From a virus (Duplodnaviria > Heunggongvirae > Uroviricota > Caudoviricetes): 64,000 bases of DNA. The stretch lies in the IMG/VR virus record IMGVR_UViG_2974540528_000001, positions 33,169-97,168 of that record. One strand, written 5' to 3'. Each line of letters starts with the position of its first letter. Within the stretch, counting starts at the first letter, position 1. The notes under the pieces are model-generated. The model was not told where the DNA came from, ran no database searches, and saw only the letters and a list, made by a program, of their open reading frames with translations. This document shows, in pieces, positions 9,558 to 59,526 of this stretch. Position numbers and translations under genes: made by a program.

Positions 9558-9633
9558 TGGATGCGGGTAGCAGACTCGAACTGCTCTTCGTTCGGCTTAT
9601 GAGACCGATGAACTCCCTGAGTTCTAACCCGCA
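9558..9633 (-). tRNA. tRNA-Met(CAT)
   Basis: Hand-folded cloverleaf: acceptor TGCGGGT/ACCCGCA, T-arm GCAGTTCGAGTCTGC, anticodon stem TCGGT/GCCGA with loop CTCATAA; CCA encoded. Confidence 0.8.
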
Positions 9634-10175
9634 ATTGTTTTGTAATCATTCACAGCCAAGAGAAATTTCTCATCTTCTCTTGTTGAATGCTCAAGAATGT
9701 GACAGTTTGCGCACAGCAGTTCACATTTCTCTATTTCTGGCAGTAAAGACTCCCAAGACTTATTGGAAAACCTTCCAATTTCGAAATCTTTATCACGAAG
9801 ATGATGAAACTGTAGTGCCACAGGATTATCATATCCGCAACGATTACAACAGCCGCCTAAATGGTCTATAGCTTTCAGTTTATTTCTGTGCCTTCTTATT
9901 TTTGTAATGCAGGTAGGGCATGTGTGTCGCCTCTTGCACTCTTTACCGCAGACCTTGCAACTGTTGGGAACTTCTTTTCTGTTGTTTGGTAGGTTTATGG
10001 TTTTTAGTTTAAGGGAGATAAGGCGAGACTTCATAGTGGAAGTAGGTATCCCAAAATGTTTTGCTAGCATACTCACAGAGTAGCCTCTCGCAATAAGTTC
10101 TTCAATGTTTTCCATAAAACCCTTAATTGGTGCAGAGAGAAGGTATCGAACCTTCCTCTCAAGCTCTTCAGGCAA
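9624..10175 (-). CDS. HNH homing-endonuclease-like protein
   Basis: 183 aa; Cys-rich with HNH core (QFHHL...CELLCANCHILEH); located inside the tRNA array. Confidence 0.65.
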   Translation of the reverse strand: MPEELERKVRYLLSAPIKGFMENIEELIARGYSVSMLAKHFGIPTSTMKSRLISLKLKTINLPNNRKEVPNSCKVCGKECKRRHTCPTCITKIRRHRNKLKAIDHLGGCCNRCGYDNPVALQFHHLRDKDFEIGRFSNKSWESLLPEIEKCELLCANCHILEHSTREDEKFLLAVNDYKTIAG

Positions 10176-10208
10176 GCGCTAATCCGTCTCAGCTATCTCT
10201 GCATAAAG

Positions 10209-10294
10209 TGGTGGGCAAGGAGAGACTCGAACTCTCACACCGCAAGGGCGCTGGAACCTAAATCCAGTGCGTCTACCAATTCCGCCACTTGCCC
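10209..10294 (-). tRNA. tRNA-Leu(TAG)
   Basis: Acceptor GGGCAAG/CTTGCCC, long variable arm, anticodon loop TTTAGGT, T-arm GAGAGTTCGAGTCTCTC, CCA encoded. Confidence 0.8.
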
Positions 10295-17529: not shown

Positions 17530-17825
17530 CAGTGTATACCTCTGGGAACAATTGTCTTGCCCTAGCCTTCATTTCAACAATGATGTCATTCAGTCTAAGA
17601 CTGAGGCTATGCATTCTTTCTAAAGTTTCCATATAATGCCTCTCAGAAGTCTGGGTGCTCGTCAGAAGAAATCCCCTCTCCGAAACCAACGAAAACATCT
17701 ACGTCTTCAGACTGACGAATCCCTTCGCCGTAACCAATAAAGCCGTCAAATTCATCTTTCATCGTTTTGCTCCTTTTCGTTTTGAACGAATGATCGCCGC
17801 TTCAGCACGACGTTGTTTTCGATTC

Positions 17826-18701: not shown

Positions 18702-20435
18702 TTACAGTTGAGCGGCTGCGCGTTCACGAATCGTTGTCAGATCTTCATCGACAATCAGTTTTCCGTTGTAGAACACACGACGCAGGTCATTATCTTTAGA
18801 CTGTACCTCTTCCAGTTGGCAATTGTCAATCAGTTCTAACTGACCGAACATGTTGCGAACAACTTTGAGGAAACCTTTCGCAGATTTCTTACTGAGGTCG
18901 GTCTTAGGCTCTTTGACAACCATGATCTGCTGACCATCAATCACAGCGCCAGTTGCTTTCACAGCCATACCAAGTGAATCACGGGTTGTATACTGGGTGG
19001 TAAAGGAACCAACACCGTACACGATATTGCTGGATGCAAAGCCTTTATCTTTCAGACGTTCAAAGATGTCTTTTGCACGCGCGACAGTGATAGAATCACC
19101 GTAGATCAGACCAATATGACTATCAAGAACCTTATAGCCCTTGGAATTAACTTCACCACCGAAAATATCCCATAAACATTGGACTGCACCTACAGCTTCA
19201 TGGTAAGGAACTTCATCTGTTTCATCAATAACATCAAAACCTGAAGACTGCTTGACACGATAGAACTTACCAAGAACCTGAACAAGTTCATATCCGGCTT
19301 CCGCATTGGCATCATAAGCTTCTTCAAAGCTTGCATAATCACCGCCATCTGTGTAGTAACCAGCAATGATATGCTCAGGGACACCGGAGTCCGGGCGGAA
19401 TACAACACGTCCATCGCGAGCCATGATTTCCTGTTTCAGGATCGCTGCTGCTTTGGTGATAATCGCCCAGAAGTCATAACTGTCTGCCACGTAGGAAACA
19501 AAACCTTTAGGGAAAATTTCCGTAATGTAGCGTTTCATGAATTCAACTTCAGCCAAGAAACGTGCTTCGTCCAGAGTCAGTTCCGGGTGTTCACCTTGTA
19601 GGCGACCGACGATAAATCCGATGTTCGTGGTTGCAACAGAGTGTTCAGATGCAGGAATAGAACCAGCAACGAACTTGCCTTTCATGTTGTAATAACGACG
19701 AGCATACAGAATCGCTGGGATAGTGTCTGTACCCATAGAGTTGATCAGTTGACCAAATTCGCTCTGTGCTGCGTCGTGAGTACCAGCTTCACCGCGATAG
19801 GCGAAGCAGTGGTTCTGGAATGCAACATGGTCGTTGTTATCACAGGTCTCAGCAGCCCATTTTTCAGACAGCTTGCGATACTGCCAGAACGTCGTTGCAG
19901 TTGTGATAGTTTTCCAGGTTTCTGCGGAGATCACACTTTCCAGGAAGTTAGGCAACCAGTAAAAATCCGGGTGCGTATTCTGGATTGTAAACATTGGGAC
20001 CTGAACCGGAGAAAGCGTTCCTTCTGGAAGAGCACGGATTTCCAGAGGAAGATAACCGAGATCATGAAGAGCCTCAAAGCCCCAGGTTTCTACCATGCCA
20101 ATGCCAATGCTGGAGTCGCAAACCTCACGATAATCAGCAACCGCTTCTTCTTTCGGGAGGTTGAAGAAGTTATTGTTGAACATGTCGATAAGGAACCACT
20201 TAATAAATCCCTGAAGGCCAGCAAACATGACACGCTGGTCGTTATCAGCGAAGTGGATGAAGTGCTTCGCATTACGAGGGGTCATGTTATCCTGAACAAT
20301 TTCAGAACGTTTATCATACATGGAGATGTGTGAAGGTTTGTAAAAGTCAGCGAACAGGATAGGACTTTCTTGATTAAGCATGTTTTGTTTCTCCTTTGTT
20401 TGTTTAATAGGGCGATTGTACGCCCACTTATTCAT
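18702..20435 (-). CDS. nadV: nicotinamide phosphoribosyltransferase family protein (NadV/Nampt-like; possibly Namat of an NAD-reconstitution pathway)
   Basis: 577 aa; Nampt-family length and conserved C-terminal region (VKEPKTDLSKKSAKGFLKV resembles the Nampt DPNKRSKKGR segment); adjacent to a PRPP-synthetase-like gene. Confidence 0.85.
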   Translation of the reverse strand: MNKWAYNRPIKQTKEKQNMLNQESPILFADFYKPSHISMYDKRSEIVQDNMTPRNAKHFIHFADNDQRVMFAGLQGFIKWFLIDMFNNNFFNLPKEEAVADYREVCDSSIGIGMVETWGFEALHDLGYLPLEIRALPEGTLSPVQVPMFTIQNTHPDFYWLPNFLESVISAETWKTITTATTFWQYRKLSEKWAAETCDNNDHVAFQNHCFAYRGEAGTHDAAQSEFGQLINSMGTDTIPAILYARRYYNMKGKFVAGSIPASEHSVATTNIGFIVGRLQGEHPELTLDEARFLAEVEFMKRYITEIFPKGFVSYVADSYDFWAIITKAAAILKQEIMARDGRVVFRPDSGVPEHIIAGYYTDGGDYASFEEAYDANAEAGYELVQVLGKFYRVKQSSGFDVIDETDEVPYHEAVGAVQCLWDIFGGEVNSKGYKVLDSHIGLIYGDSITVARAKDIFERLKDKGFASSNIVYGVGSFTTQYTTRDSLGMAVKATGAVIDGQQIMVVKEPKTDLSKKSAKGFLKVVRNMFGQLELIDNCQLEEVQSKDNDLRRVFYNGKLIVDEDLTTIRERAAAQL

Positions 20436-20442
20436 TTGTCAA

Positions 20443-21276
20443 TTAAAAGTTTTCGGTCCAGTCGTGGTACGCGTAGATTTCATCAACGCCGCCTTCGTAG
20501 ATAACTTCTTTACCGAAGGAAAAGATACCGTGAGTTACGTAAAGAATAACACGTTTTGCTCCTTTTGCCTTCAATGCTTGTGCCAGGGCGATGAATGTGC
20601 GACCACCATCGCAGATATCATCGACAATAACACACTCACGTCCTTCAACATCACCGAAAACAGCAGTCCCGGTAATTTCATTTGTCTTCAGGTCGCGCAC
20701 TTTTCCAGCTTCCACCAGAGGAAGGCGAAGTCGATCGGAAACTTTCTGAGCTTTTTTACGTGCTCCGGCGTCAGGGGCAACGATAACAACATCTTTTCCG
20801 GCAAGACCTTCATGGAATTCCGCAATAAGAGCGTCCTGACCACGGATTTTAACGTTGTTAAGCAACGCGGCGGAGACATCGCTGTGCGGATCATCGACAA
20901 TGACCTTGTCAAACCCAAGAGAGTTGACGATATTTGCGAAAACTTTGATGGATAACGCTTCACCAGGTTGCATTACGCGGTCCTGACGTGCATATGGGAT
21001 GTACGGTAGGTGCAAAGTAAATTGTGCAGTATGATGGAGACCTTCAAGGCGAGAACATGCATCCACCAACATGGCAAGTGCCATAACATCAGTAGAATTT
21101 TTAATTTTCGCAGTGATGTCTACGAAACCAATACCACCTTTCGGAGTATGCGCCATATCGATTCTAACCTGTTCTTCACCACCTTTGAACGTAAAGTGAT
21201 CGACAGGAACTACCAGTTTGTTCAGACGAAGTTCTAAACTCATTTCATTTCTCCTCTTTCCAAGAATGTACTTCAT
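20443..21276 (-). CDS. prs: ribose-phosphate pyrophosphokinase family protein (Prs-like; possibly ADPR pyrophosphokinase Adps)
   Basis: 277 aa; PRPP-synthetase motifs PYARQDR and PRPP-binding loop VIVDDICDGGRT; shorter than cellular Prs. Confidence 0.85.
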   Translation of the reverse strand: MKYILGKRRNEMSLELRLNKLVVPVDHFTFKGGEEQVRIDMAHTPKGGIGFVDITAKIKNSTDVMALAMLVDACSRLEGLHHTAQFTLHLPYIPYARQDRVMQPGEALSIKVFANIVNSLGFDKVIVDDPHSDVSAALLNNVKIRGQDALIAEFHEGLAGKDVVIVAPDAGARKKAQKVSDRLRLPLVEAGKVRDLKTNEITGTAVFGDVEGRECVIVDDICDGGRTFIALAQALKAKGAKRVILYVTHGIFSFGKEVIYEGGVDEIYAYHDWTENF

Positions 21277-21562
21277 AAATTGTTTTGTTGTGACCCATCT
21301 TGGTACGCGTCGTATGTTTTGTCAACCATTTTAATTTCTCAAGGTTGCTTACACACCTTGTTGTGGTCGCCCGTGATAGGCCAACTGCATCAGCTATGCT
21401 ATCCAGCGATTCGTGGTACTCCTTCCGCATCGATTTGAAGTAATGGAACTGATGCCGCATATATAGGTACACTATCTTATCATTGGAAGAGGCACAGGTC
21501 ACCGACAGCAGCTTCAGTTCGAAGTTGCCGTAGATGTGCTTACCTGTTGCAATGTACCCCAT
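21245..21562 (-). CDS. putative HTH transcriptional regulator
   Basis: 105 aa; helix-turn-helix-like segment SIADAVGLSRATTTRCVSNLEKLKWL; first minus-strand gene next to the divergent control region. Confidence 0.5.
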   Translation of the reverse strand: MGYIATGKHIYGNFELKLLSVTCASSNDKIVYLYMRHQFHYFKSMRKEYHESLDSIADAVGLSRATTTRCVSNLEKLKWLTKHTTRTKMGHNKTIYEVHSWKEEK

Positions 21563-21619: not shown

Positions 21620-21785
21620 CGTAAATAAATACTATATAAAATAAATAAAACAATACTCTTTTAAAAAACAATAAAACATAAGATCTAAAACAAGATCTTT
21701 TACTACAGAGTATAAATATTCTATATCATAGAGTCGGTGACTCGATGAGTTGGATTATCGTATGAAGAAAAGATGATGTCAAGTG

Positions 21786-22830: not shown

Positions 22831-23066
22831 GCAGACTTGCAAAACTAAACAGAAGAAAGAAAATGTTGAAAGAAAAGCAGAAAAACATCACGGCTACTTT
22901 CCAAGTATGCCGAGAGGCTATGAAGGCAAATCGGATAACACCTTCGCAGAGACAGTTGATCCGTGATATTCTTCGTCCTGTGCTCCATGACCTTGAAGGT
23001 GAAGTTCGTGATGTTACACTTCATATTCAAGAGGAACTTGTAAAAAGATATCAGGAGAATACATGA
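22827..23066 (+). CDS. hypothetical protein
   Basis: 79 aa, basic N-terminus; overlaps neighbours by 4 nt. Confidence 0.4.
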   Translation: MSRLAKLNRRKKMLKEKQKNITATFQVCREAMKANRITPSQRQLIRDILRPVLHDLEGEVRDVTLHIQEELVKRYQENT

Positions 23067-23656
23067 TTGACCATGTTACGTCAGACACTCACTGGTGGCA
23101 TACCAACATCCTTGGTTTCCCATCGTGTGATAAATTCCGTAAGAATCTGTACGGTCAAAAAGAAGACCGTGAAAGTCTGTATGCCATGAATGCAGGTATG
23201 ATTGAAATCTGGAATAAGCACGTCAAACCAGATGATGTCGTAGCACACCTTGGTGACTTCGTGATCGCTTACGGTCGCTACGTTGAGCCACGCACTCGTG
23301 ATATTCTGGAAAAGATCAACGGAAAGATCATTCTTGTTGGTGGTAACCATGACAACCGAGATACGAAACGTATCTTCCGTGAATTCGGTCATGAAGTTGT
23401 TGATTATAAAGAGATTAACTTCAGCACTGGAAAAGAGAAGGTGCATGTGTGTATGTCTCACTATCCGTTCGCATCGTGGAACAAAGCACACCACGGGTCA
23501 GTTATGTTGCACGGGCATAGCCACGGCTCCTATACAGCCCCCGGTGGACGTATTCTCGATGTAGGTTGGGATGTTCATGGTCGTCCTCTGACGATGCGTG
23601 AGGCCGTCCTGATGTGCCTCAAAAAACCAATCTACACTGCTGACCACGGAGAATAA
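23063..23656 (+). CDS. calcineurin-like metallophosphoesterase
   Basis: 197 aa; metallophosphatase motifs DTHWWH, GDFV, GGNHDN, and HGHSHG near the C-terminus. Confidence 0.7.
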   Translation: MIDHVTSDTHWWHTNILGFPSCDKFRKNLYGQKEDRESLYAMNAGMIEIWNKHVKPDDVVAHLGDFVIAYGRYVEPRTRDILEKINGKIILVGGNHDNRDTKRIFREFGHEVVDYKEINFSTGKEKVHVCMSHYPFASWNKAHHGSVMLHGHSHGSYTAPGGRILDVGWDVHGRPLTMREAVLMCLKKPIYTADHGE

Positions 23657-23657
23657 G

Positions 23658-24014
23658 ATGCATAACAAAGAACGAAATTTCATAGCACGTAACACGGCGA
23701 AGTCTTTCTTCGCTACTATTCACATTGCCGGGGATTATGCTCAGGCCGAGAATTTGTGTCGCCAGTGGGTTATGCAAGGTGCTTGTGTGCAGATTGCTCC
23801 ATGCACCTATGTTTACACAGGTGGTGTCGAAGATGGTATGACTGTGCGGTTGATGCAGTATCCACGTTTCCAGCGTCAGGAGCATGAGATATTATCAATG
23901 GCTGTCGAACTTGGAAAATATCTTGCTCAGGAGATGTGCCAGATAAGCTTCAGTATCGAAACTCCTTATAATACAACATATTATCAGGCGGAAGGTTATG
24001 AAAAAAGATCTTGA
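23658..24014 (+). CDS. hypothetical protein
   Basis: 118-aa ORF starting 2 nt after the phosphoesterase stop. Confidence 0.4.
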   Translation: MHNKERNFIARNTAKSFFATIHIAGDYAQAENLCRQWVMQGACVQIAPCTYVYTGGVEDGMTVRLMQYPRFQRQEHEILSMAVELGKYLAQEMCQISFSIETPYNTTYYQAEGYEKRS

Positions 24015-24195
24015 TCTTATCCATAACGTGGCCTTTTTGATTAGCGAGCTTGAAGAATATGTTGACGAACTAGACCTGAGCATCTATGATGACTACAGTG
24101 AAATGAAATCAGCACAAAAGGAAGTGCTCAAACTATTGAAAAATCTCAGACGAAGGAGAGAACATGAAATTCAACGTAGACGATTTGGTCGCTAA
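23998..24195 (+). CDS. hypothetical small protein
   Basis: 65 aa, charged helical. Confidence 0.3.
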   Translation: MKKDLDLIHNVAFLISELEEYVDELDLSIYDDYSEMKSAQKEVLKLLKNLRRRREHEIQRRRFGR

Positions 24196-25126
24196 AAAAC
24201 TGGTAACCAAAAAGACTTACACCGAAGGCCCGTTCGCGGGTCTGTCTGTGCTGAAGTATAAGAACAATGTGTTCTGGGATAACCTGTGGCATACTGACCC
24301 ACGCCTGCTTGAGTGCCGTGGCATGGTTGTTGATTCAGAAGACAACGTGATTATCTGGCCTTTCACTAAGATTTTCAACCGCTTCGAGAATGGAACTGAC
24401 CTTCCTCTTGACAAACCGGTTATTTGTTCCCGCAAGGTCAATGGTTTTATGGCTACAGCGGCAATACACAAAGACAAGCTCCTCGTTTCAACAACAGGGA
24501 CATTGGATTCTGAGTTTTCAGAATTGGCTCGTAAGTACCTCGAAAAAATGAATTTTGATCTGATTTCTTTCCGTGAAGATTACACTTTCATTTTCGAAAT
24601 ATGCGATAGCAGCGACCCACACATTGTGGAAGAGAAAGAAGGTGCTTATCTGATTGGTGTCCGTGACCTCGCTTTAAACGGTGTTATGGTTGAAGAGCAC
24701 AAACTTGATCGCATCGCTGAAGTGATCGGTGCAAAACGTCCTCAATGGGATGTCCGTGCATTTGGCGATGTCGTTGCAGCCAGTCATGCTGTTAGCCACG
24801 AAGGTTTTGTTGTCCGAAATATCGGGACAGATGACGAAAATAGCGAACTACTTTTGAAAATCAAGTCCCCACATTACCTGGCGAAGAAATTCCTGATGCG
24901 TGGAGGTGATAACAAGTGGGATATGATCTGGGATAACCCGAAAGAGGCCAAGAAGCGTATTGACGAAGAGTATTACGAGTTGCTAGACCATATTCGTGAG
25001 TATTACTCTAAAGATGTTTGGTCCGCGATGGATTCTCAAAAACGACGTCAGGTTGTTGAAGATTACTTCGCTATCGAAGACATGTTTGATCGTGGTAGTC
25101 GTTTTTATGTTGGGGTTCCAAAATGA
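24164..25126 (+). CDS. RNA-ligase-like nucleotidyltransferase (covalent nucleotidyltransferase superfamily)
   Basis: 320 aa; motif-I-like lysine in ICSRKVNGFMATA (KxNG as in Trl1-type RNA ligases); RBS GAAGGAGAGAACATG. Confidence 0.5.
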   Translation: MKFNVDDLVAKKLVTKKTYTEGPFAGLSVLKYKNNVFWDNLWHTDPRLLECRGMVVDSEDNVIIWPFTKIFNRFENGTDLPLDKPVICSRKVNGFMATAAIHKDKLLVSTTGTLDSEFSELARKYLEKMNFDLISFREDYTFIFEICDSSDPHIVEEKEGAYLIGVRDLALNGVMVEEHKLDRIAEVIGAKRPQWDVRAFGDVVAASHAVSHEGFVVRNIGTDDENSELLLKIKSPHYLAKKFLMRGGDNKWDMIWDNPKEAKKRIDEEYYELLDHIREYYSKDVWSAMDSQKRRQVVEDYFAIEDMFDRGSRFYVGVPK

Positions 25127-25467
25127 TTATCTGGCTTGATGACCTGAGAGATCCAAAAGACTACGGGTATCCTGATGCCTTGTGGTTCAAGACCTCTCAG
25201 AAATTTATGGACTTTCTGGACAACAGGTCAAAGTTCTATCGTTATGTCACAGAGTGGCATTTCGATAATGACCTTGGTGAAGAGTCAGAAATGGAGGGCT
25301 ATGACTGCCTGTTGGCCTTGGAAGAGAAGCTTGTGTATGGAAAACTTCCTGTGCATGATGCTAAACTCTATGTCCATACGTCTAACCCTTCTGCGGCACA
25401 AAAGTTCATGCTTGCAAAAGAGAGCTTCTTGAAGTATCGTATCACGATCTTAAGAAACAATTACTGA
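25123..25467 (+). CDS. hypothetical protein
   Basis: 114-aa ORF overlapping the ligase-like gene stop. Confidence 0.4.
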   Translation: MIIWLDDLRDPKDYGYPDALWFKTSQKFMDFLDNRSKFYRYVTEWHFDNDLGEESEMEGYDCLLALEEKLVYGKLPVHDAKLYVHTSNPSAAQKFMLAKESFLKYRITILRNNY

Positions 25468-25476
25468 GGAGAAGAG

Positions 25477-25881
25477 ATGGAAAAGACTCTGATTATCCTG
25501 CGTGGTGTGTCTGGTGCTGGTAAGTCTACAGTTGCTGAAACAATCGCGGGTAAAGCATGGCCTGTATTTGAGGCCGATAAATACCATTATCGGGACGGGG
25601 TTTACGACTGGAAGCCTGAAAACATGGCTGTTGCTCATAAGTGGTGTCAAGAACAGGTACGTGAGGCTATGGTGTGCCGTATTGCAAAAATTATCGTATC
25701 CAACACTTCGACAACAGAGAAGGAACTAAAACCCTACATTGCCCTTGCTGATGAGCACGGATACCAAGTTATTAGCTTGGTGGTCGAGAATAGGCATGGT
25801 AATGATTCTATTCACAATGTTCCGCAGGAAACTCGTGATGCTCAAGAGCTTCGTCTGCGTAACTCATTGAAATTACAGTAA
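25477..25881 (+). CDS. P-loop polynucleotide-kinase-like protein (T4 Pnk kinase-domain-like)
   Basis: 134 aa; Walker A LRGVSGAGKSTVA at N-terminus; small AAA_33/Pnk-like kinase architecture. Confidence 0.55.
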   Translation: MEKTLIILRGVSGAGKSTVAETIAGKAWPVFEADKYHYRDGVYDWKPENMAVAHKWCQEQVREAMVCRIAKIIVSNTSTTEKELKPYIALADEHGYQVISLVVENRHGNDSIHNVPQETRDAQELRLRNSLKLQ

Positions 25882-25889
25882 GGAAAGAT

Positions 25890-26114
25890 ATGTATAAAGG
25901 AAATAACCTACGGGAATCGTTCGAAAATTGGTGGGACTCTCTTAGCGATCCTTGGTCAACACCAGAAGCAAAATCTGCTGCATGGGAAGCCTGGAAGTTT
26001 TCAAATTTACGAGTTCTTAATAAAATTCGTTATATGAAAGGTATTACCGAGCGGTGCAATGGTTATAATGAGGCTATGAATGAGATAAATAATGTTATAG
26101 GGGAAAATCCATGA
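25890..26114 (+). CDS. hypothetical small protein
   Basis: 74-aa ORF with RBS AAGGAAAG upstream. Confidence 0.35.
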   Translation: MYKGNNLRESFENWWDSLSDPWSTPEAKSAAWEAWKFSNLRVLNKIRYMKGITERCNGYNEAMNEINNVIGENP

Positions 26115-26887
26115 GACGTCTTATCGTTATAAGTGGTGCTGGCTTCTCTGCGGAGAGTGGTGTACGTACATTCCGCACAGATACTGAATCTGGTAAAGCC
26201 CTGTGGGATGAATACGACCTTGAGGAGGTTTGTAACATACACGCCTTCCGTGGTAACTTCTACCATAAAACGCACATGTTTTATAACAAGCGTCGTGCAG
26301 AGTTACCAACGGTACATCCGAATGCGGCGCATCTTCGCGTGGCTGAGTGGTACAGACGTTATCCTGGGCAGGTTGTTAACATGACAACTAACGTTGATGA
26401 CCTTCTGGAACGTGCGGGTGTCCCTAAAGAAGATACTCTTTACATACATGGTTATCTGAAAGAGATCCTTGTTAAAGATGCTTTCACCAAGAAGATAAAG
26501 GTTGTCGATATTGGCTACGACCAAATTGATCCTGATGATTATGATTGGTGTAAACCAAACGTAATTTTCTTTGGTGAAAATGCTCCGGCGTATGGACCTA
26601 TGTCTGATACCCTGGAGTCTTTAGGAAGCCAAGATCTTGTAATTGTTGTTGGGTGCTCAAACACGGTAATCAACTTCAACTGGGAGTTGTTCCCTGCGGT
26701 TATGCGGGGGACCAAAGTTGTTGTTGTTAATCCTGCTATTAGGTATGATGAACAAATGATGTATGAGAATGCGGGTGTTCTTGTATATCGTACCGGAGCT
26801 GTTGATGCCTTTAATAATCCCGGCCTTATCAAGATAGTTGAGAATCACCTTGAAGGTAAGACACCATTGCAAAGCAAGGAGAAATAA
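26111..26887 (+). CDS. Sir2-family protein (sirtuin-like, zinc-less)
   Basis: 258 aa; sirtuin motifs ISGAGFSAESGVRTFR, TTNVDDLLERAG, catalytic HG in LYIHGY, PNVIFFGE and VVGCSN; no CxxC zinc-ribbon. Confidence 0.8.
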   Translation: MRRLIVISGAGFSAESGVRTFRTDTESGKALWDEYDLEEVCNIHAFRGNFYHKTHMFYNKRRAELPTVHPNAAHLRVAEWYRRYPGQVVNMTTNVDDLLERAGVPKEDTLYIHGYLKEILVKDAFTKKIKVVDIGYDQIDPDDYDWCKPNVIFFGENAPAYGPMSDTLESLGSQDLVIVVGCSNTVINFNWELFPAVMRGTKVVVVNPAIRYDEQMMYENAGVLVYRTGAVDAFNNPGLIKIVENHLEGKTPLQSKEK

Positions 26888-32757: not shown

Positions 32758-32960
32758 TGATGTCTGAAAAGATGATTCAAGTACCTGCCTCCATTATCGC
32801 AGAACTCGTGCCGTATATTAACAGCGGACTACGATCAACTGCTGATGAGATGGGAAAGGCTGGACATACCCCATCCGAAGTAATGTCTGAGGATTATGAC
32901 CGTTTTAACTCCCTTCGTAGGATTCTGAGAGAAAACGGAGTCAGCTATGCGAGTAACTGA
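32758..32960 (+). CDS. hypothetical small protein
   Basis: Start chosen at ATG 32758 after RBS AAGGAGCATATG rather than the track start 32712. Confidence 0.35.
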
Positions 32961-33453
32961 TAAATACGTCTTCTTCTTCACTTACCGGGATATGTTCAGT
33001 AATCACTACCGCCAAGTTATTCCTATTCGTTGTGGTGGTTATGAGTTTTTCACTGTAGAACATTACATGATGTTCCAGAAGGCAATGCTCTTCGATGACA
33101 AAGAAATTGCTTCCCGCATCGCTACGGTTGATAACCCGAATGAGGCCAAAGCTCTTGGTCGTCAGGTAAAAGGTTTCGACAATAACGTCTGGGAAGAGAA
33201 TAGGATGGATATTGTGACTTCAGGCCTTGTATTGAAAATGAAGGCCAACAGATCTGTCCTCGAAGCGGCGCTTGGGCATCGAGATGCAGGGCGTAAGTTT
33301 GTGGAAGCCTCTCCTTATGATGCCATCTGGGGTGTTAAATTAAACGAATATGATACACGTATCGATGATCCTGCCAATTGGCGTGGTTTGAATCTTCTCG
33401 GTGAGTGCTGGGAACGGGCTATTGATATTGTTGTTGCTGCAACGTGGAGGTGA
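32947..33453 (+). CDS. NADAR-domain (YbiA-like) protein
   Basis: 168 aa; NADAR-type motifs FFFTYRDMFSNHYRQ and EFFTVEHYMMFQKAMLFDD. Confidence 0.65.
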   Translation: MRVTDKYVFFFTYRDMFSNHYRQVIPIRCGGYEFFTVEHYMMFQKAMLFDDKEIASRIATVDNPNEAKALGRQVKGFDNNVWEENRMDIVTSGLVLKMKANRSVLEAALGHRDAGRKFVEASPYDAIWGVKLNEYDTRIDDPANWRGLNLLGECWERAIDIVVAATWR

Positions 33454-55154: not shown

Positions 55155-56402
55155 ATGAAAGTATATCTGGTAGGTGGCGCTGTTCGTGATGGTCTGCTGG
55201 GTCGCCCAGTTCATGACCGTGACTACGTGGTTGTGGGTGCAACGCACGAAGAAATGATTGAAAAAGGTTTCACCCAGGTTGGCGCTGCTTTCCCGGTGTA
55301 CTTGCATCCTGAAACCAAAGAAGAATACGCACTGGCCCGTACTGAGCGCAAAACTGGTGAAGGTCATACTGGCTTTGAGACTTTCTTCAGCCCAGATGTG
55401 ACGCTGGAAGAGGATTTGTCTCGTCGTGATCTGACGATCAATGCGATGGCTAAAGACATGGAGACAGGGTTTATCATTGACCCGTTCAACGGTATGCATG
55501 ACCTGTCAAACATGACTCTCCGTCATACGACGTCGGCATTCATGGATGACCCACTGCGTATTCTGCGTCTTTTCCGTCTTAAGGCACAGTTAGGGGAGAG
55601 TTGGTCTGTTGACCATAAAACATACACACTTATGTTTAATAATCGTCACCGCCTTGCGGAGATTAGTCCTGAGCGTAAATGGAAAGAGATGGAAAAGGCT
55701 TTAAATTCCAAAAACTTCCATAACTATGCTTACCACATGTCGATTATGGGCGAACTTCCAGAACTGGATGCCCTTCGTGGAGTAGAGCAGCCGAGAGAAC
55801 ATCACCCGGAAGGAGACGCTTTCATTCATACATTGATGTGTCTGCAACAGGCCGATAAAACCTTTTGCTCTCCTCAGGTGAAATTTGCGGTGCTGTGTCA
55901 TGACTTTGGAAAGGCGATCACTTTCCGTAAGTACGGTAATCTCCTCGGTCATGAAGAGGCTGGGCTTGATCCTGTGCGGACGCTGTGCAGTAGAATTCGA
56001 GTTCCTAACGAATTCAGGGATATTGCACTGTACGTGACAGAGCACCATACTCGTGTGCATTGCATTTTGGGCCGTGGGAATAATAAAGGAATCAAGCCAC
56101 GTTCCATGATGAAGCTTTTCGAAGCCGCAGGTAACGTGGCTAGTCAGAAGACACAGGATAAGGTGTTTGCCTTAGCAGACGCTTGTTTCTGCGATGCCCG
56201 TGGTCGTGGTGCCACGCACGCAGATAAGGAATACCCGCAAGGAAAAATTCTCCTTGATGCTTTCGAGGCGGTTGTAAATACGGACAGCAAGGCGGTATCT
56301 TCCGCAATGCTGGAGAAAGGCAAAAGCGGTAAGGAGATCGGTGAGGCGATCCGTGTTGCACGTATCGATGCAATCCGTAATGTTCTTAAGGAGAGACCAT
56401 GA
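55155..56402 (+). CDS. cca: tRNA nucleotidyltransferase (CCA-adding enzyme, class II)
   Basis: 415 aa; head-domain motif MKVYLVGGAVRDGLLGRPVHDRDYVVVG (GGxVRD...DxD), RRDLTINAMA motif, and HD-domain-like C-terminal part (HD in VLCHDFGKA). Confidence 0.8.
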   Translation: MKVYLVGGAVRDGLLGRPVHDRDYVVVGATHEEMIEKGFTQVGAAFPVYLHPETKEEYALARTERKTGEGHTGFETFFSPDVTLEEDLSRRDLTINAMAKDMETGFIIDPFNGMHDLSNMTLRHTTSAFMDDPLRILRLFRLKAQLGESWSVDHKTYTLMFNNRHRLAEISPERKWKEMEKALNSKNFHNYAYHMSIMGELPELDALRGVEQPREHHPEGDAFIHTLMCLQQADKTFCSPQVKFAVLCHDFGKAITFRKYGNLLGHEEAGLDPVRTLCSRIRVPNEFRDIALYVTEHHTRVHCILGRGNNKGIKPRSMMKLFEAAGNVASQKTQDKVFALADACFCDARGRGATHADKEYPQGKILLDAFEAVVNTDSKAVSSAMLEKGKSGKEIGEAIRVARIDAIRNVLKERP

Positions 56403-58452: not shown

Positions 58453-59526
58453 ATGATGGAAAATTTCGAAGTGATGCGATGCCACTCAGGAAGTTTGGCT
58501 TATGGCACAAATCTGCCAACTAGTGATGTGGATATCCGGGGTCTGTTCTGCGCCCCTCCTAAATTCATTCGCACCCCGTTCTTTAACATCAAAGAACAGA
58601 CACTGGAAGATGAAGAAGATGGGAAGATTTATGAGCTGACAAACTTCATGAAATTGTTTGCAGAGATGAACCCCAACATTATCGAACTGATGTTTGTCGA
58701 TGATAAGGATATTCTGCAAACCTCTGAAGTTTATGAATATCTTCGCACAATGGCCCCAGCGCTACTGACCAGTAAGGTAGCGTTCTCCTTTTCTGGGTAT
58801 GCGATGGCTCAGTTGAAGCGTATTCGTGGTCACGATAAATGGATCAGCAACCCGCAGCCTGAGGCAAAGCCTACGCAAAAGGAATTCTTCCGATTAGTTC
58901 ACAACTATAGTGAGAACGAGTTCCTTGCTGGGGCAATTAAACATGATCGCTTCATGGAAGCAATGAACAATCTCAACGATATGTGTATCCTTGTACCTTA
59001 TGGGAACGATATCTATGGGGTGATGGAAAACTTCAGTAGCTCAGGGATGTTCAATGCTGACGGTTCAATTCGCCATGTTGACTATCAGCAACTTTCTGAC
59101 TCTGACAAGCGGAGAAAACCTGTCTTTATTGTCAAATATTTGGCAGAGGAACACAAACAGGCCAAAGAGAAGCATCGTAACTATTGGACATGGAAACAGA
59201 ACCGAAATGAAGTTCGTCACCAGCTCGAAGTTGATTTTGGTTATGACACGAAACATGCGATGCACCTTGTACGCCTGATGCGTATGGCAGAAGAGATTCT
59301 TTCTGATGGGAAGGTCCTCGTGAAGCGTCCTGATGCTCAGGAACTCCTCGATATCCGGGCTGGTAAGTGGACTCTTGACGAACTGCTCTCATGGGCTGAC
59401 GAGAAGGACCATTATATCCGGGAAGATTTGTACAAAAAGACACAGCTTCCTAAAATGGCGGATCTTGACCTGTTTGCCAGGGTTCTCATGACGGCTCAAG
59501 ATATGTGTTGGAGTAAACTGGTATGA
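58453..59526 (+). CDS. Pol-beta-superfamily nucleotidyltransferase
   Basis: 357 aa; N-terminal RCHSGSLAYGTNLPTSDVDIRG matches the GS-x9-13-DxD nucleotidyltransferase signature. Confidence 0.6.
   Translation: MMENFEVMRCHSGSLAYGTNLPTSDVDIRGLFCAPPKFIRTPFFNIKEQTLEDEEDGKIYELTNFMKLFAEMNPNIIELMFVDDKDILQTSEVYEYLRTMAPALLTSKVAFSFSGYAMAQLKRIRGHDKWISNPQPEAKPTQKEFFRLVHNYSENEFLAGAIKHDRFMEAMNNLNDMCILVPYGNDIYGVMENFSSSGMFNADGSIRHVDYQQLSDSDKRRKPVFIVKYLAEEHKQAKEKHRNYWTWKQNRNEVRHQLEVDFGYDTKHAMHLVRLMRMAEEILSDGKVLVKRPDAQELLDIRAGKWTLDELLSWADEKDHYIREDLYKKTQLPKMADLDLFARVLMTAQDMCWSKLV

What the first reader, a model, noticed from the sequence alone, without database searches (positions are those of the whole stretch)
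18702..21276. Phage-encoded NAD+ reconstitution pair (Nampt-family plus Prs-family enzymes)
A 577-aa Nampt-family phosphoribosyltransferase sits adjacent to a short (277-aa) PRPP-synthetase-family protein. Established work shows phages carry such pairs to rebuild NAD+ after depletion by Thoeris, DSR, CBASS-NADase and similar immunity. The pathway is either Prs/NadV-type salvage or an Adps (ADPR to ADPR-PP) plus Namat route. Which chemistry operates here cannot be told from sequence alone. The truncated Prs-like protein and extended Nampt-like protein make the ADPR-based variant plausible.
Basis: partly seen in the sequence, partly recalled or inferred. Interest (0 to 1): 0.7.

Follow-up and report, generated by a model that had tools for sequence, protein, structure and literature searches.

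The report
Known phage NAD+ rebuilding gene pair
These two adjacent genes of Klebsiella phage BIS47 are a copy of NARP1, an already described phage pathway that rebuilds NAD+ from the fragments left by NAD-destroying bacterial defences, so the finding is real but already known.

Summary
The window is Klebsiella phage vB_KpnM_BIS47 (100% identity). The two ORFs exist where stated. Their real starts are internal ATGs with strong ribosome-binding sites, giving 559 aa (Nampt family, 18702..20381, minus strand) and 266 aa (Prs family, 20443..21243, minus strand), not 577 and 277 aa.

Sequence evidence favours the ADPR route, NARP1 (Adps + Namat):
- The Prs-like protein falls inside the phage Adps clade, apart from housekeeping Prs (100% bootstrap).
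- It keeps the catalytic Lys and has the Adps-type residue at every position that separates the two groups.
- The Nampt-like protein groups with Adps-linked Namats, not KVP40-type Nampts (100% bootstrap).
- It carries the published adenine-clamp motif (GSFTTQYTTRD).
- Its best solved-structure matches are the SPβL1 Namat crystals.

Both genes are listed in the supplementary tables of the paper that discovered NARP1, so this is already known. No enzyme assay or knockout exists for this phage. The closest tested homologue, from Bas63, is only about 42% identical. The protein's extra length comes from lineage-specific insertions and does not indicate the ADPR route.

Outside the window the phage also encodes a NadR-like enzyme and a PnuC-like transporter (NARP3-like).

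The parts
21754..21782 (-). Sigma-70-like promoter (TTGACA, 17 nt, GATAAT; 11 of 12 matches) in the AT-rich divergent intergenic region upstream of the leftward wHTH-adps-namat genes
   Evidence: Consensus scan only; sequence read. Function is inferred, not shown.
21245..21562 (-). Small winged-HTH protein gene (BIS47_76, 105 aa) immediately upstream. Its TGA stop lies 1 nt before the adps ATG, and the adps ribosome-binding site sits inside its 3' end. Probably co-transcribed; role unknown.
   Evidence: Pfam DUF6945 at 28.7 bits and several HTH families; weak sub-threshold hit to PF24409 'wHTH-PRTase associated'. PHROG 8102 N-terminal region. Junction sequence. Not conserved next to the pair in PBES02 or phi1_175008.
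20443..21243 (-). adps: ADPR-pyrophosphate synthetase, a Prs-family enzyme of 266 aa (BIS47_75)
   Evidence: TIGR01251 at 170 bits, but far below every Prs equivalog cut-off, e.g. 137 against 297. Inside the phage Adps clade with 100% bootstrap. Listed with 'Namat within 10 genes: Yes' in Osterman Table S1.
20692..20706 (-). Adps catalytic loop GKVRD. K181 aligns with SPβL1 Adps K162 (K162A abolishes activity) and with the E. coli Prs catalytic Lys.
   Evidence: Alignment column check; mutant data; coordinates.
20593..20622 (-). Adps ribose-phosphate binding loop DDICDGGRTF, the Adps-type variant of the Prs loop DDMIDTGGTL
   Evidence: Alignment of 19 Adps-type against 10 Prs sequences; coordinates.
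20382..20442 (-). 61-nt adps-namat spacer holding the namat ribosome-binding site (AGGAG) and a second promoter-like site (TTGACA, 16 nt, TACAAT at 20442..20415)
   Evidence: Consensus matches only.
18702..20381 (-). namat: nicotinamide ADPR-transferase, a Nampt-family enzyme of 559 aa (BIS47_74)
   Evidence: Best PDB hits are 9W5X/9W5W, the SPβL1 Namat, at 415 bits against about 170 for true Nampts. Groups with Adps-adjacent homologues with 100% bootstrap. Listed as 'Adps-associated' in Osterman Table S2.
18978..19010 (-). Namat selectivity-clamp helix motif (SCH) GSFTTQYTTRD, residues 458-468. F460 and Y464 are the adenine-stacking aromatic positions 3 and 7.
   Evidence: Motif definition. 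Alignments: six Adps-linked homologues have GS[FY]..Q[YFC].TRD, five unlinked ones have GGGLLQ...RD. Coordinates.
20259..20282 (-). Namat selectivity-clamp loop (SCL) TPRNAKHF, residues 34-41. Lys39 is at the 'third' position and is followed by His40. The loop is longer than the Nampt ESRGGKF loop.
   Evidence: Rule described; alignment; coordinates. Stacking by H40 is inferred.
19383..19397 (-). Catalytic RPDSG strand. R329 and D331 correspond to SPβL1 Namat R306 and D308.
   Evidence: R306G/A abolishes activity in SPβL1.
19635..19649 (-). SEHSV segment with the conserved catalytic (autophosphorylated) histidine, H247
19197..19358 (-). Lineage-specific insertion of about 54 aa (residues 342-395) right after the RPDSG strand. 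With a 23-aa insertion at residues 253-275 (19557..19625), it accounts for the 'extended' length.
   Evidence: Alignment: present in BIS47, Bas63 and Pseudomonas phage SCUT-S2 Namats; absent from Staphylococcus, ICP1 and Mycobacterium phage Namats and, from the alignment, from SPβL1 Namat. No Pfam domain. Function unknown.

Best explanation
The two genes are the NARP1 pathway of Klebsiella phage BIS47.

Step 1. When a host NADase defence (SIR2, TIR or SEFIR effectors of Thoeris I, DSR1/2, SIR2-HerA and similar systems) cleaves NAD+ into ADP-ribose and nicotinamide, the 266-aa Prs-like enzyme Adps uses ATP to pyrophosphorylate the free ribose of ADPR, giving ADPR-pyrophosphate.

Step 2. The 559-aa Nampt-like enzyme Namat replaces that pyrophosphate with nicotinamide, regenerating NAD+ directly, and the phage can replicate despite the defence.

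What is shown here: gene anatomy, family and clade membership, conservation of catalytic residues, and the presence of the residues that select ADPR-PP over PRPP.

What is inferred from homologues (Bas63 in vivo; SPβL1 and DyoEdafos in vitro; FADO knockout): the chemistry itself and the anti-defence phenotype.

Also inferred: the genes are probably transcribed together with an upstream small wHTH gene from a sigma-70-type promoter at the head of the leftward gene block, which would fit early expression.
For: 1. These exact genes (KY652726_00092 and _00093) are in Osterman et al.'s tables as 'Adps-associated' Namat and as a Prs/Adps homologue with 'Namat within 10 genes: Yes'. That is the paper's operational definition of its 859 phage NARP1 pathways.

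2. Adps. In my NJ tree, 19 phage Adps-type proteins, including the tested Bas63, SPβL1 and FADO enzymes, separate from 10 Prs sequences in 100% of 300 bootstraps, and BIS47 lies inside that clade. The protein is 41.6% identical to Bas63 Adps (158 bits) against 31.3% to E. coli Prs (97 bits). It fails every NCBIfam Prs equivalog cut-off. K181 matches the essential K162. It has the Adps-type residue at each discriminating position: FKGGE, a shorter loop after RQDR without the basic residues, DPHSD, DDICDGGRT, and no Prs C-terminal segment of about 45 aa.

3. Namat. The best PDB hits are the SPβL1 Namat crystals 9W5X/9W5W at 415 bits, against about 170 bits for human and Xanthomonas Nampt. The split between Adps-adjacent and non-adjacent homologues has 100% bootstrap support, with BIS47 on the Namat side. 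The SCH motif GSFTTQYTTRD fits the published Namat signature, with aromatics at positions 3 and 7. KVP40-genus, RB43, Xanthomonas-phage and CcrSwift Nampts and Xcc Nampt have GGGLLQ/GGALLQ instead. The SCL has Lys39-His40 in the pattern described for Bas63. The catalytic residues F193, R196, D219, H247, R329 and D331 are conserved.

4. Biochemistry and phenotypes of homologues are documented.
Against: No experiment exists for BIS47 itself. The closest tested homologues are distant: Bas63 at about 42% identity for both proteins, and SPβL1 Adps at 32%, which is no better than E. coli Prs in pairwise terms.

My trees are small NJ trees. The Prs outgroup is narrow: nine gammaproteobacterial sequences plus one mycobacterial fragment.

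The Adps-versus-Prs discriminating positions are my own observation from 29 sequences, not a validated signature, and no Adps structure is in the PDB.

Namat enzymes keep some PRPP-dependent NMN synthesis in vitro, and the phage encodes a NadR-type NMN adenylyltransferase elsewhere, so a side route cannot be excluded.

The SCL stacking residue here would be His rather than the Trp or Tyr seen in relatives, and the two insertions are uncharacterised.
Confidence: 0.88

Rival explanations
1. Classical PRPP chemistry. The Prs-like enzyme makes PRPP from ribose-5-phosphate, and the Nampt-like enzyme makes NMN from PRPP and nicotinamide. NMN is then adenylated to NAD+ by the phage's own NadR-like NMN adenylyltransferase or by host NadR/NadD. 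This would be a NARP2-like salvage route and the literal meaning of the database annotations.
For: Database names and Pfam/NCBIfam subfamily hits say Prs and Nampt. Namat enzymes can still make NMN from PRPP in vitro. BIS47 does encode a complete NadR-like NMNAT/RNK across the record ends.
Against: Both proteins fall in the Adps and Namat clades, not with Prs or KVP40-type Nampt. The adenine-clamp motif is present, and the KVP40-type GGGLLQ motif is absent. SPβL1 Adps gave no product in the assay for classical Prs activity, and SPβL1 Namat made only NAD+ when offered both substrates. Bas63 still overcame defence in a ΔpncC ΔnadR host. The authors found no phage with both NARP1 and NARP2. The Prs equivalog cut-offs are missed by a wide margin.
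Confidence: 0.05
2. Dual use. NARP1 is the main function, but Namat's residual NMN synthase activity feeds the phage NadR-like adenylyltransferase. Together with PnuC-mediated nicotinamide riboside import, the phage would then run two or three converging NAD+ supply routes.
For: The same genome holds NARP1 and NARP3-like genes: a NadR-like ORF of 362 aa once the record ends are joined, with a GKFAPLTNGH NMNAT motif and an AAA_28 kinase domain, plus PnuC (TIGR01528, 116 bits). Relatives KpS11 and KNP2, and also ICP1, carry both. Residual PRPP activity of Namat is documented.
Against: With both substrates present, SPβL1 Namat made only NAD+. The NadR and PnuC genes lie more than 50 kb from the pair and are not adjacent to each other. 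No data link them functionally to Namat. The BIS47 NadR-like protein matches the characterised Bas30_86 structure only moderately (154 bits).
Confidence: 0.15
3. General nucleotide-metabolism booster. The Prs-like enzyme raises PRPP for phage nucleotide synthesis, and the pair has no defence-related role.
For: Large lytic phages carry many nucleotide-metabolism genes, and this genome has RNR, thymidylate kinase and MazG-like genes.
Against: The tight pairing with a Namat-type gene follows the published pattern: 97% of Adps-clade genes have a Namat neighbour, whereas bacterial prs genes almost never do. Clade and motif evidence is as above. Homologue knockouts have defence-specific phenotypes.
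Confidence: 0.02

Closest known systems
NARP1 (Adps + Namat) of Escherichia phage Bas63 / JohannRWettstein, genes 79-80 (Osterman et al. 2024)
   Same: Same two-gene order (adps then namat, same strand). Both proteins are in the same clades. The Namat clamp motif is the same type (Bas63 GSYTYQYMTRD, BIS47 GSFTTQYTTRD). The SCL has Lys followed by an aromatic or His residue. A large insertion follows the RPDSG strand in both.
   Different: Only 41.6% (Adps) and 41.7% (Namat) identical. Bas63 is a Felixounavirus of 87 kb; BIS47 is a Mydovirus (Vequintavirinae) of 147 kb. The insertion is about 30 aa shorter in BIS47. The BIS47 pair is preceded by a translationally coupled wHTH gene. BIS47 has not been tested experimentally.
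NARP1 of Bacillus phage SPβL1 (biochemically characterised; Namat crystal structures 9W5X/9W5W)
   Same: Namat is the best solved-structure match (415 bits). All NAM/NMN-site residues and the SCH aromatics are conserved. The Adps catalytic Lys is conserved.
   Different: Adps is only 31.8% identical and uses a DDLSSFGGT loop instead of DDICDGGRT. SPβL1 Namat is about 490 aa and lacks both insertions. Its SCL uses Arg40 directly, where BIS47 has Lys39-His40.
NARP2 (Nampt NadV + Nmnat NatV) of Vibrio phage KVP40
   Same: Same Nampt superfamily, the same catalytic core, and the same end product (NAD+).
   Different: About 27% identity to KVP40-genus Nampts. A different clade (100% bootstrap). GGGLLQ instead of the aromatic clamp. 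A short ESRGGKF loop. No adjacent Prs-like gene. PRPP is preferred over ADPR-PP.
Housekeeping class I ribose-phosphate diphosphokinase (E. coli Prs)
   Same: Same fold family. Shared RQDR, PD.G, catalytic Lys and DD motifs.
   Different: 31% identity. Lacks the basic flexible-loop residues, the QIQGFFD motif, the DTGGT 5-phosphate loop and the C-terminal segment of about 45 aa. Fails the equivalog cut-offs.
NARP1-AP (Adps-Adpp-Namat with a Macro-domain ADPR-1''-phosphate phosphatase) and RyDEP-extended NARP1
   Same: Core Adps and Namat genes.
   Different: No Macro or RyR domain protein among the neighbouring ORFs scanned, so BIS47 has the plain two-enzyme form. By inference it should be sensitive to aRES-type defence.

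Membership tests
NARP1 (Adps + Namat) | A Prs-family gene and a Nampt-family gene in close proximity (Namat within 10 genes of Adps) in a phage genome | tested here: met
   Adjacent, same strand, 61-nt spacer. Phage identity shown. Listed as such in Osterman Tables S1 and S2.
NARP1 (Adps + Namat) | The Prs-family protein belongs to the Adps clade, separate from housekeeping Prs | tested here: met
   NJ tree of 19 Adps-type against 10 Prs sequences: split found in 100% of 300 bootstraps, with BIS47 inside the Adps clade. Caveat: narrow Prs outgroup and the NJ method.
NARP1 (Adps + Namat) | Adps catalytic lysine (SPβL1 K162) present | tested here: met
   K181 is in the same alignment column.
NARP1 (Adps + Namat) | The Nampt-family protein belongs to the Adps-associated Namat clade rather than the KVP40-type Nampt clade | tested here: met
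   100% bootstrap split between six Adps-adjacent and five non-adjacent homologues. PDB best hits are SPβL1 Namat.
NARP1 (Adps + Namat) | [quoted passage not shown] | tested here: met
   GSFTTQYTTRD at residues 458-468, with F460 and Y464.
NARP1 (Adps + Namat) | SCL loop carrying Arg, Lys or Tyr at the third position, with a stacking residue there or at the next position | tested here: inconclusive
   TPRNAKHF has Lys39 at the third position followed by His40, in an extended loop like other Namats. Whether His40 stacks on adenine cannot be judged from sequence.
NARP1 (Adps + Namat) | Intact Nampt-like catalytic core (equivalents of SPβL1 F189, R192, D215, the catalytic His, R306 and D308) | tested here: met
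   F193, R196, D219, H247, R329 and D331.
NARP1 (Adps + Namat) | Enzymatic activities: ADPR + ATP gives ADPR-PP; ADPR-PP + nicotinamide gives NAD+, with ADPR-PP preferred over PRPP | not testable with these tools
   Shown only for SPβL1, DyoEdafos and Paenibacillus homologues, and in vivo for Bas63.
NARP1 (Adps + Namat) | Rescues the phage from NAD+-depleting defences | not testable with these tools
   Shown for Bas63, FADO and engineered SBSphiJ. No data for BIS47.
NARP2 (Nampt + Nmnat) | KVP40-type Nampt: Nampt clade, with no adenine clamp | tested here: not met
   BIS47 lies on the Namat side of the split. The motif is not GGGLLQ. About 27% identity to KVP40-genus Nampts.
NARP2 (Nampt + Nmnat) | Nmnat (KVP40 NatV type) encoded in the same genome | tested here: inconclusive
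   No NatV-type gene is annotated. The 'nucleotidyltransferase' BIS47_147 is RlaP. A NadR-type NMNAT/RNK does exist across the record ends, but that type defines NARP3, not NARP2. I did not compare anything directly against the KVP40 NatV sequence.
NARP1-AP / RyDEP-extended NARP1 | Macro-domain Adpp within two genes of the operon, or a RyR-domain gene inside it | tested here: not met
   Pfam scans of the flanking ORFs found no Macro or RyR domain. One tiny ORF (17643..17762) and a few others in the flanks were not scanned.
Housekeeping ribose-phosphate diphosphokinase (Prs) | Reaches the NCBIfam Prs equivalog cut-offs; has the DTGGT 5-phosphate loop, the basic flexible loop and the C-terminal segment | tested here: not met
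   Best scores against the full-length Prs models are 137 against 297 and 125 against 296 bits. The loop is DGGRT, the basic residues are absent, and the C-terminus is about 45 aa shorter.

The most novel reading that the evidence does not exclude
The BIS47 lineage may run a layered NAD+ counter-defence network rather than a single pathway. NARP1 would be combined with a NARP3-like NadR/PnuC module elsewhere in the genome. Namat's residual NMN synthesis could feed the phage NadR. The uncharacterised insertions in Namat (residues 253-275 and 342-395, shared in part with the Bas63 and Pseudomonas phage enzymes) might add regulation or change substrate gating. I found no discussion of NARP1 and NARP3 co-occurring in one phage, or of these insertions, in the papers I read or in my searches of the library.
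Probability: 0.2. Interest if true: 0.4.

Novelty: already known. Interest (0 to 1): 0.15.

Why it matters
NARP1 lets a phage escape many unrelated NAD+-depleting defences at once, which bears on host range and on choosing or engineering therapeutic Klebsiella phages. For this locus the pathway type can be assigned from sequence with good confidence, and the public annotations ('ribose-phosphate pyrophosphokinase', 'nicotinamide phosphoribosyltransferase') are functionally misleading. Nothing here changes current understanding, because the genes were already counted among the 859 NARP1 phages in the discovery paper. The only mildly new points are outside the finding: the same phage also carries NadR/PnuC (NARP3-like) genes, and its NadR gene is mis-annotated because the record was opened inside it.

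Tried and rejected
1. Pairwise identity as a classifier was rejected. BIS47 Adps is 31.8% identical to SPβL1 Adps and 31.3% to E. coli Prs, so trees and motif positions were needed.

2. I first recalled Bas63 as a Vequintavirinae phage, a close relative of BIS47. The record shows it is a Felixounavirus, so there is no close-orthology argument, only about 42% identity.

3. The genome-contig scan for Prs outgroups returned only gammaproteobacterial Prs at least 80% identical to E. coli Prs. The outgroup is narrow, so I added a mycobacterial Prs fragment taken from a PDB alignment.

5. 'Extended Nampt length indicates the ADPR route' was rejected. The insertions are lineage-specific and absent from the characterised SPβL1 Namat.

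6. I looked for accessory NARP1 genes (Macro/Adpp, RyR/RyDEP) and for an Nmnat near the pair and found none. The annotated 'nucleotidyltransferase' is RlaP, the 'hydrolase' had only a sub-threshold PTH2 hit and no Nudix match, and the 'tRNA nucleotidyltransferase' is a CCA-adding enzyme.

7. The nearby metallophosphoesterase (23063..23656) was considered as a possible aRES-countering phosphatase. The published Adpp is a Macro-domain protein, so there is no basis for that link.

8. Structure prediction of Namat to place the insertions was considered but not run. The tool returns no coordinates, so the position of the insertions relative to the active site could not be read out, and a usable alignment would have needed an expensive database search that would not change the verdict.

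9. The upstream wHTH gene was considered as a conserved third NARP1 component. It is not conserved next to the pair in PBES02 or phi1_175008.
Full report
**Source and observation**

The finding's stretch of the window is 100% identical to Klebsiella phage vB_KpnM_BIS47 (KY652726 / NC_048656; Vequintavirinae, Mydovirus; 147,443 bp). Window position 1 corresponds to record position 33169.

These are maximal ORFs. The internal ATGs at 20381 and 21243 are preceded by AGGAG and GAGGAG at 7-8 nt. The upstream ATGs have no ribosome-binding site. The internal starts are also the ones used in GenBank/RefSeq and in the literature. The proteins are therefore 559 and 266 aa.

Family assignments are unambiguous:
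- Larger protein: Nampt/NAPRTase family (NF006629 at 482 bits, PHROG 448 at 648 bits).
- Smaller protein: Prs family (TIGR01251 at 170 bits, PHROG 619 at 319 bits; Pfam Pribosyltran_N, Pribosyltran and Pribosyl_synth).

**Anatomy**

The genes point the same way, 61 nt apart.

Immediately upstream is a 105-aa winged-HTH gene (21245..21562). Its TGA stop lies one base before the adps ATG, and its 3' end contains the adps ribosome-binding site.

Upstream of that is an AT-rich intergenic region of about 275 bp between divergent gene blocks. It holds a near-consensus sigma-70-type promoter facing the pair (TTGACA, 17 nt, GATAAT; 21782..21754). A second promoter-like site lies in the adps-namat spacer. 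These are consensus matches only. I infer, but have not shown, that wHTH-adps-namat form one early transcription unit.

No Macro-domain or RyR-domain gene lies among the neighbouring ORFs I scanned. The locus is therefore the plain two-enzyme form, not the phosphatase-extended NARP1-AP or the RyDEP-extended form.

**What is known**

Osterman et al. (bioRxiv 10.1101/2024.02.11.579819) showed that phage Prs-like/Nampt-like pairs are not PRPP/NMN enzymes. Adps pyrophosphorylates ADP-ribose to ADPR-PP, and Namat joins ADPR-PP to nicotinamide to give NAD+. This is NARP1. It overcomes SIR2-HerA, type I Thoeris, DSR1, DSR2 and SEFIR.

The evidence came from four sources: a Bas63 gene 79-80 knockout with metabolomics, purified SPβL1 enzymes, a FADO knockout and a knock-in into SBSphiJ.

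A second clade of Nampt homologues, typified by KVP40 NadV, prefers PRPP and works with an Nmnat. This is NARP2.

A 2026 NAR paper (PMC12774641) solved SPβL1 Namat (9W5X, 9W5W). [quoted passage not shown]

The BIS47 genes themselves appear in Osterman's supplementary tables. KY652726_00092 is listed as 'Adps-associated'. KY652726_00093 is listed with 'Namat within 10 genes: Yes'. That is the operational definition of the 859 NARP1 phages.

**Independent test of the Prs-like protein**

Pairwise identity alone does not settle it. The figures are 41.6% to Bas63 Adps (158 bits), 31.8% to SPβL1 Adps (95 bits) and 31.3% to E. coli Prs (97 bits).

I built an NJ tree from 19 phage Adps-type sequences taken from the published table and 10 Prs sequences. 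The Prs set was E. coli, eight other Gammaproteobacteria, and a mycobacterial fragment. All phage proteins, including the three tested ones, fall in one clade in 100% of 300 bootstraps, and BIS47 is inside it.

The alignment shows that BIS47 has the Adps-type residue at every position that separates the two groups:
- FKGGE instead of FSDGE.
- A shorter loop after RQDR, lacking the basic residues.
- DPHSDVSAALL instead of DLHAEQIQGFFD.
- DDICDGGRT instead of DDMIDTGGT.
- No Prs C-terminal segment of about 45 residues.

The catalytic Lys (K181, equivalent to SPβL1 K162) is conserved. The protein misses every NCBIfam Prs equivalog cut-off by a wide margin. No Adps structure is in the PDB; the best hits are ordinary Prs at E about 1e-27.

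**Independent test of the Nampt-like protein**

Its best solved-structure matches are the SPβL1 Namat crystals at 415 bits, against about 170 bits for Xanthomonas and mammalian Nampt.

I fetched six phage homologues with an adjacent Prs-like gene:
- BIS47
- Bas63
- Staphylococcus phage P108
- Pseudomonas phage SCUT-S2
- ICP1
- Mycobacterium phage Lewan

I also fetched five without one:
- Vibrio phage V07, a member of the KVP40 genus whose N-terminus MLNLNQNIAI matches the KVP40 Nampt cloning primer
- Vibrio phage K491
- RB43
- Xanthomonas phage RTH11
- CcrSwift, where the gene sits next to a cytidylyltransferase

The two groups separate in 100% of 300 bootstraps. The clamp motif tracks the split perfectly: GS[FY][TS][TY]Q[YFC].TRD in the first group, GGGLLQ...RD in the second.

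BIS47 has GSFTTQYTTRD (residues 458-468; window 18978..19010). Its extended SCL, TPRNAKHF, has Lys39-His40 in the arrangement described for Bas63. All catalytic-core residues are present: F193, R196, D219, H247, R329 and D331.

**The 'extended' length**

The extra length of about 70 residues relative to SPβL1 Namat comes from two insertions: residues 253-275 and 342-395, the latter directly after the catalytic RPDSG strand. Related insertions occur in the Bas63 and Pseudomonas phage SCUT-S2 Namats. They do not occur in the Staphylococcus, ICP1 or Mycobacterium phage Namats, nor in SPβL1 Namat. The extension is therefore lineage-specific and does not indicate the ADPR route. Its function is unknown.

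**Conclusion on mechanism**

The best-supported explanation is NARP1: ADPR + ATP gives ADPR-PP (Adps), and ADPR-PP + nicotinamide gives NAD+ (Namat).

Shown here: gene structure, clade membership, catalytic residues and specificity residues. Inferred from homologues that are 30-42% identical: the chemistry and the anti-defence phenotype.

The main rival is classical PRPP/NMN chemistry. It is disfavoured by both trees, by the clamp motif and by the published behaviour of the homologues. A minor NMN side route cannot be excluded, because Namats keep some PRPP activity in vitro and the phage has its own NadR-type adenylyltransferase.

**Wider context, outside the finding**

The GenBank/RefSeq record is opened inside a nadR-like gene. 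Joining the record's end to its start gives one 362-aa ORF with the NMNAT motif GKFAPLTNGH and a kinase domain. This ORF is intact in KNP2 (99.7%) and KpS11 (97.8%).

A PnuC-like transporter gene lies about 2 kb downstream. NadR + PnuC was defined in 2026 as NARP3 (PMC13464706). BIS47 and its relatives therefore carry NARP1 plus NARP3-like genes, and ICP1 also has NARP1 plus a NadR-like gene. I found no discussion of this co-occurrence in the papers I read or in my library searches.

The window also holds:
- a Sir2-family gene and a NADAR gene;
- an RNA-repair-like cluster;
- 24 tRNA genes on the same strand downstream of the pair.

**Verdict**

The system is already known, and these very genes are catalogued in the discovery paper. 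Interest is low.

Noticed in passing
Outside the window: NC_048656 record end joined to its start (L007 tail + L006:1-1061); PnuC at L006:3050-3772: The linear record is opened inside a nadR-like gene. Joining the ends gives a complete 362-aa NMNAT/RNK ORF (MTITRGLIFGKFAPLTNGH...). The annotated BIS47_01 (GTG start, 287 aa) is a truncation artefact. Together with a PnuC-like transporter about 2 kb downstream, the phage carries NARP3-like genes in addition to NARP1. KpS11, KNP2 and also ICP1 show the same combination.
   Followed up: partly
window 9558..17318 (-): ARAGORN finds 24 tRNA genes on the minus strand, downstream of the NARP1 pair. The feature table returned for this stretch lists no tRNA genes. 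Several tiny annotated CDSs overlap them, for example the 'DNA ligase' at 11160..11381 (+), which overlaps tRNA-Lys and tRNA-Ser. One call (14241..14315) has an odd two-base anticodon.
   Followed up: no
window 26111..26887 (+) and 32947..33453 (+): The phage encodes a Sir2-family protein (PF02146 at 79 bits, below the CobB equivalog cut-offs) and a NADAR-domain protein (PF08719 at 121 bits). Both are NAD+/ADP-ribose-related genes in a phage that also rebuilds NAD+. Their roles here are unknown.
   Followed up: no
window 23063..25881 (+), 55155..56402 (+), 58456..59526 (+): RNA-repair-like genes: a calcineurin-like phosphoesterase, a T4-type RNA ligase, a cREC_REC 'cyclic-phosphate processing receiver' domain protein and an AAA_33 kinase in a row. 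Further on are a CCA-adding enzyme with an HD domain and an RlaP-family nucleotidyltransferase next to a DUF7205 protein.
   Followed up: no
window 21245..21562 (-): A small wHTH protein is translationally coupled to adps (TGAaATG). It has a weak, sub-threshold hit to Pfam PF24409 'wHTH-PRTase associated' and matches the N-terminal part of PHROG 8102 ('replication initiation protein'). It is present in Mydovirus relatives but not next to the pair in PBES02 or phi1_175008.
   Followed up: partly
window 20415..20442 (-): A near-consensus promoter-like site (TTGACA, 16 nt, TACAAT; 11 of 12 matches) lies in the adps-namat spacer and overlaps the adps stop codon. It could give namat its own transcript. 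This is a consensus match only.
   Followed up: no
window 19197..19358 and 19557..19625 (-): Two insertions in Namat (about 54 aa after the RPDSG catalytic strand and about 23 aa after the catalytic His) have no Pfam match. Related insertions occur in the Bas63 and Pseudomonas phage SCUT-S2 Namats but not in Gram-positive-phage, ICP1 or mycobacteriophage Namats. The word 'insertion' does not occur in the Namat structure paper.
   Followed up: partly
PDB entries 9ke8/9keo (hit); Shigella phage Ag3 entry in Osterman Table S1: Entry 9ke8, a 495-aa 'nicotinamide phosphoribosyltransferase', scores between Namat and Nampt (354 bits). Its clamp motif is intermediate (GAQTYQRNTRD, with no aromatic at positions 3 and 7), and I did not identify its origin. 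Separately, Shigella phage Ag3 is listed with a chimeric ORF joining the N-terminal part of Adps to the C-terminal part of Namat. PHROG 12872, which both BIS47 proteins hit, may correspond to it. It looks like a deletion fusion.
   Followed up: no
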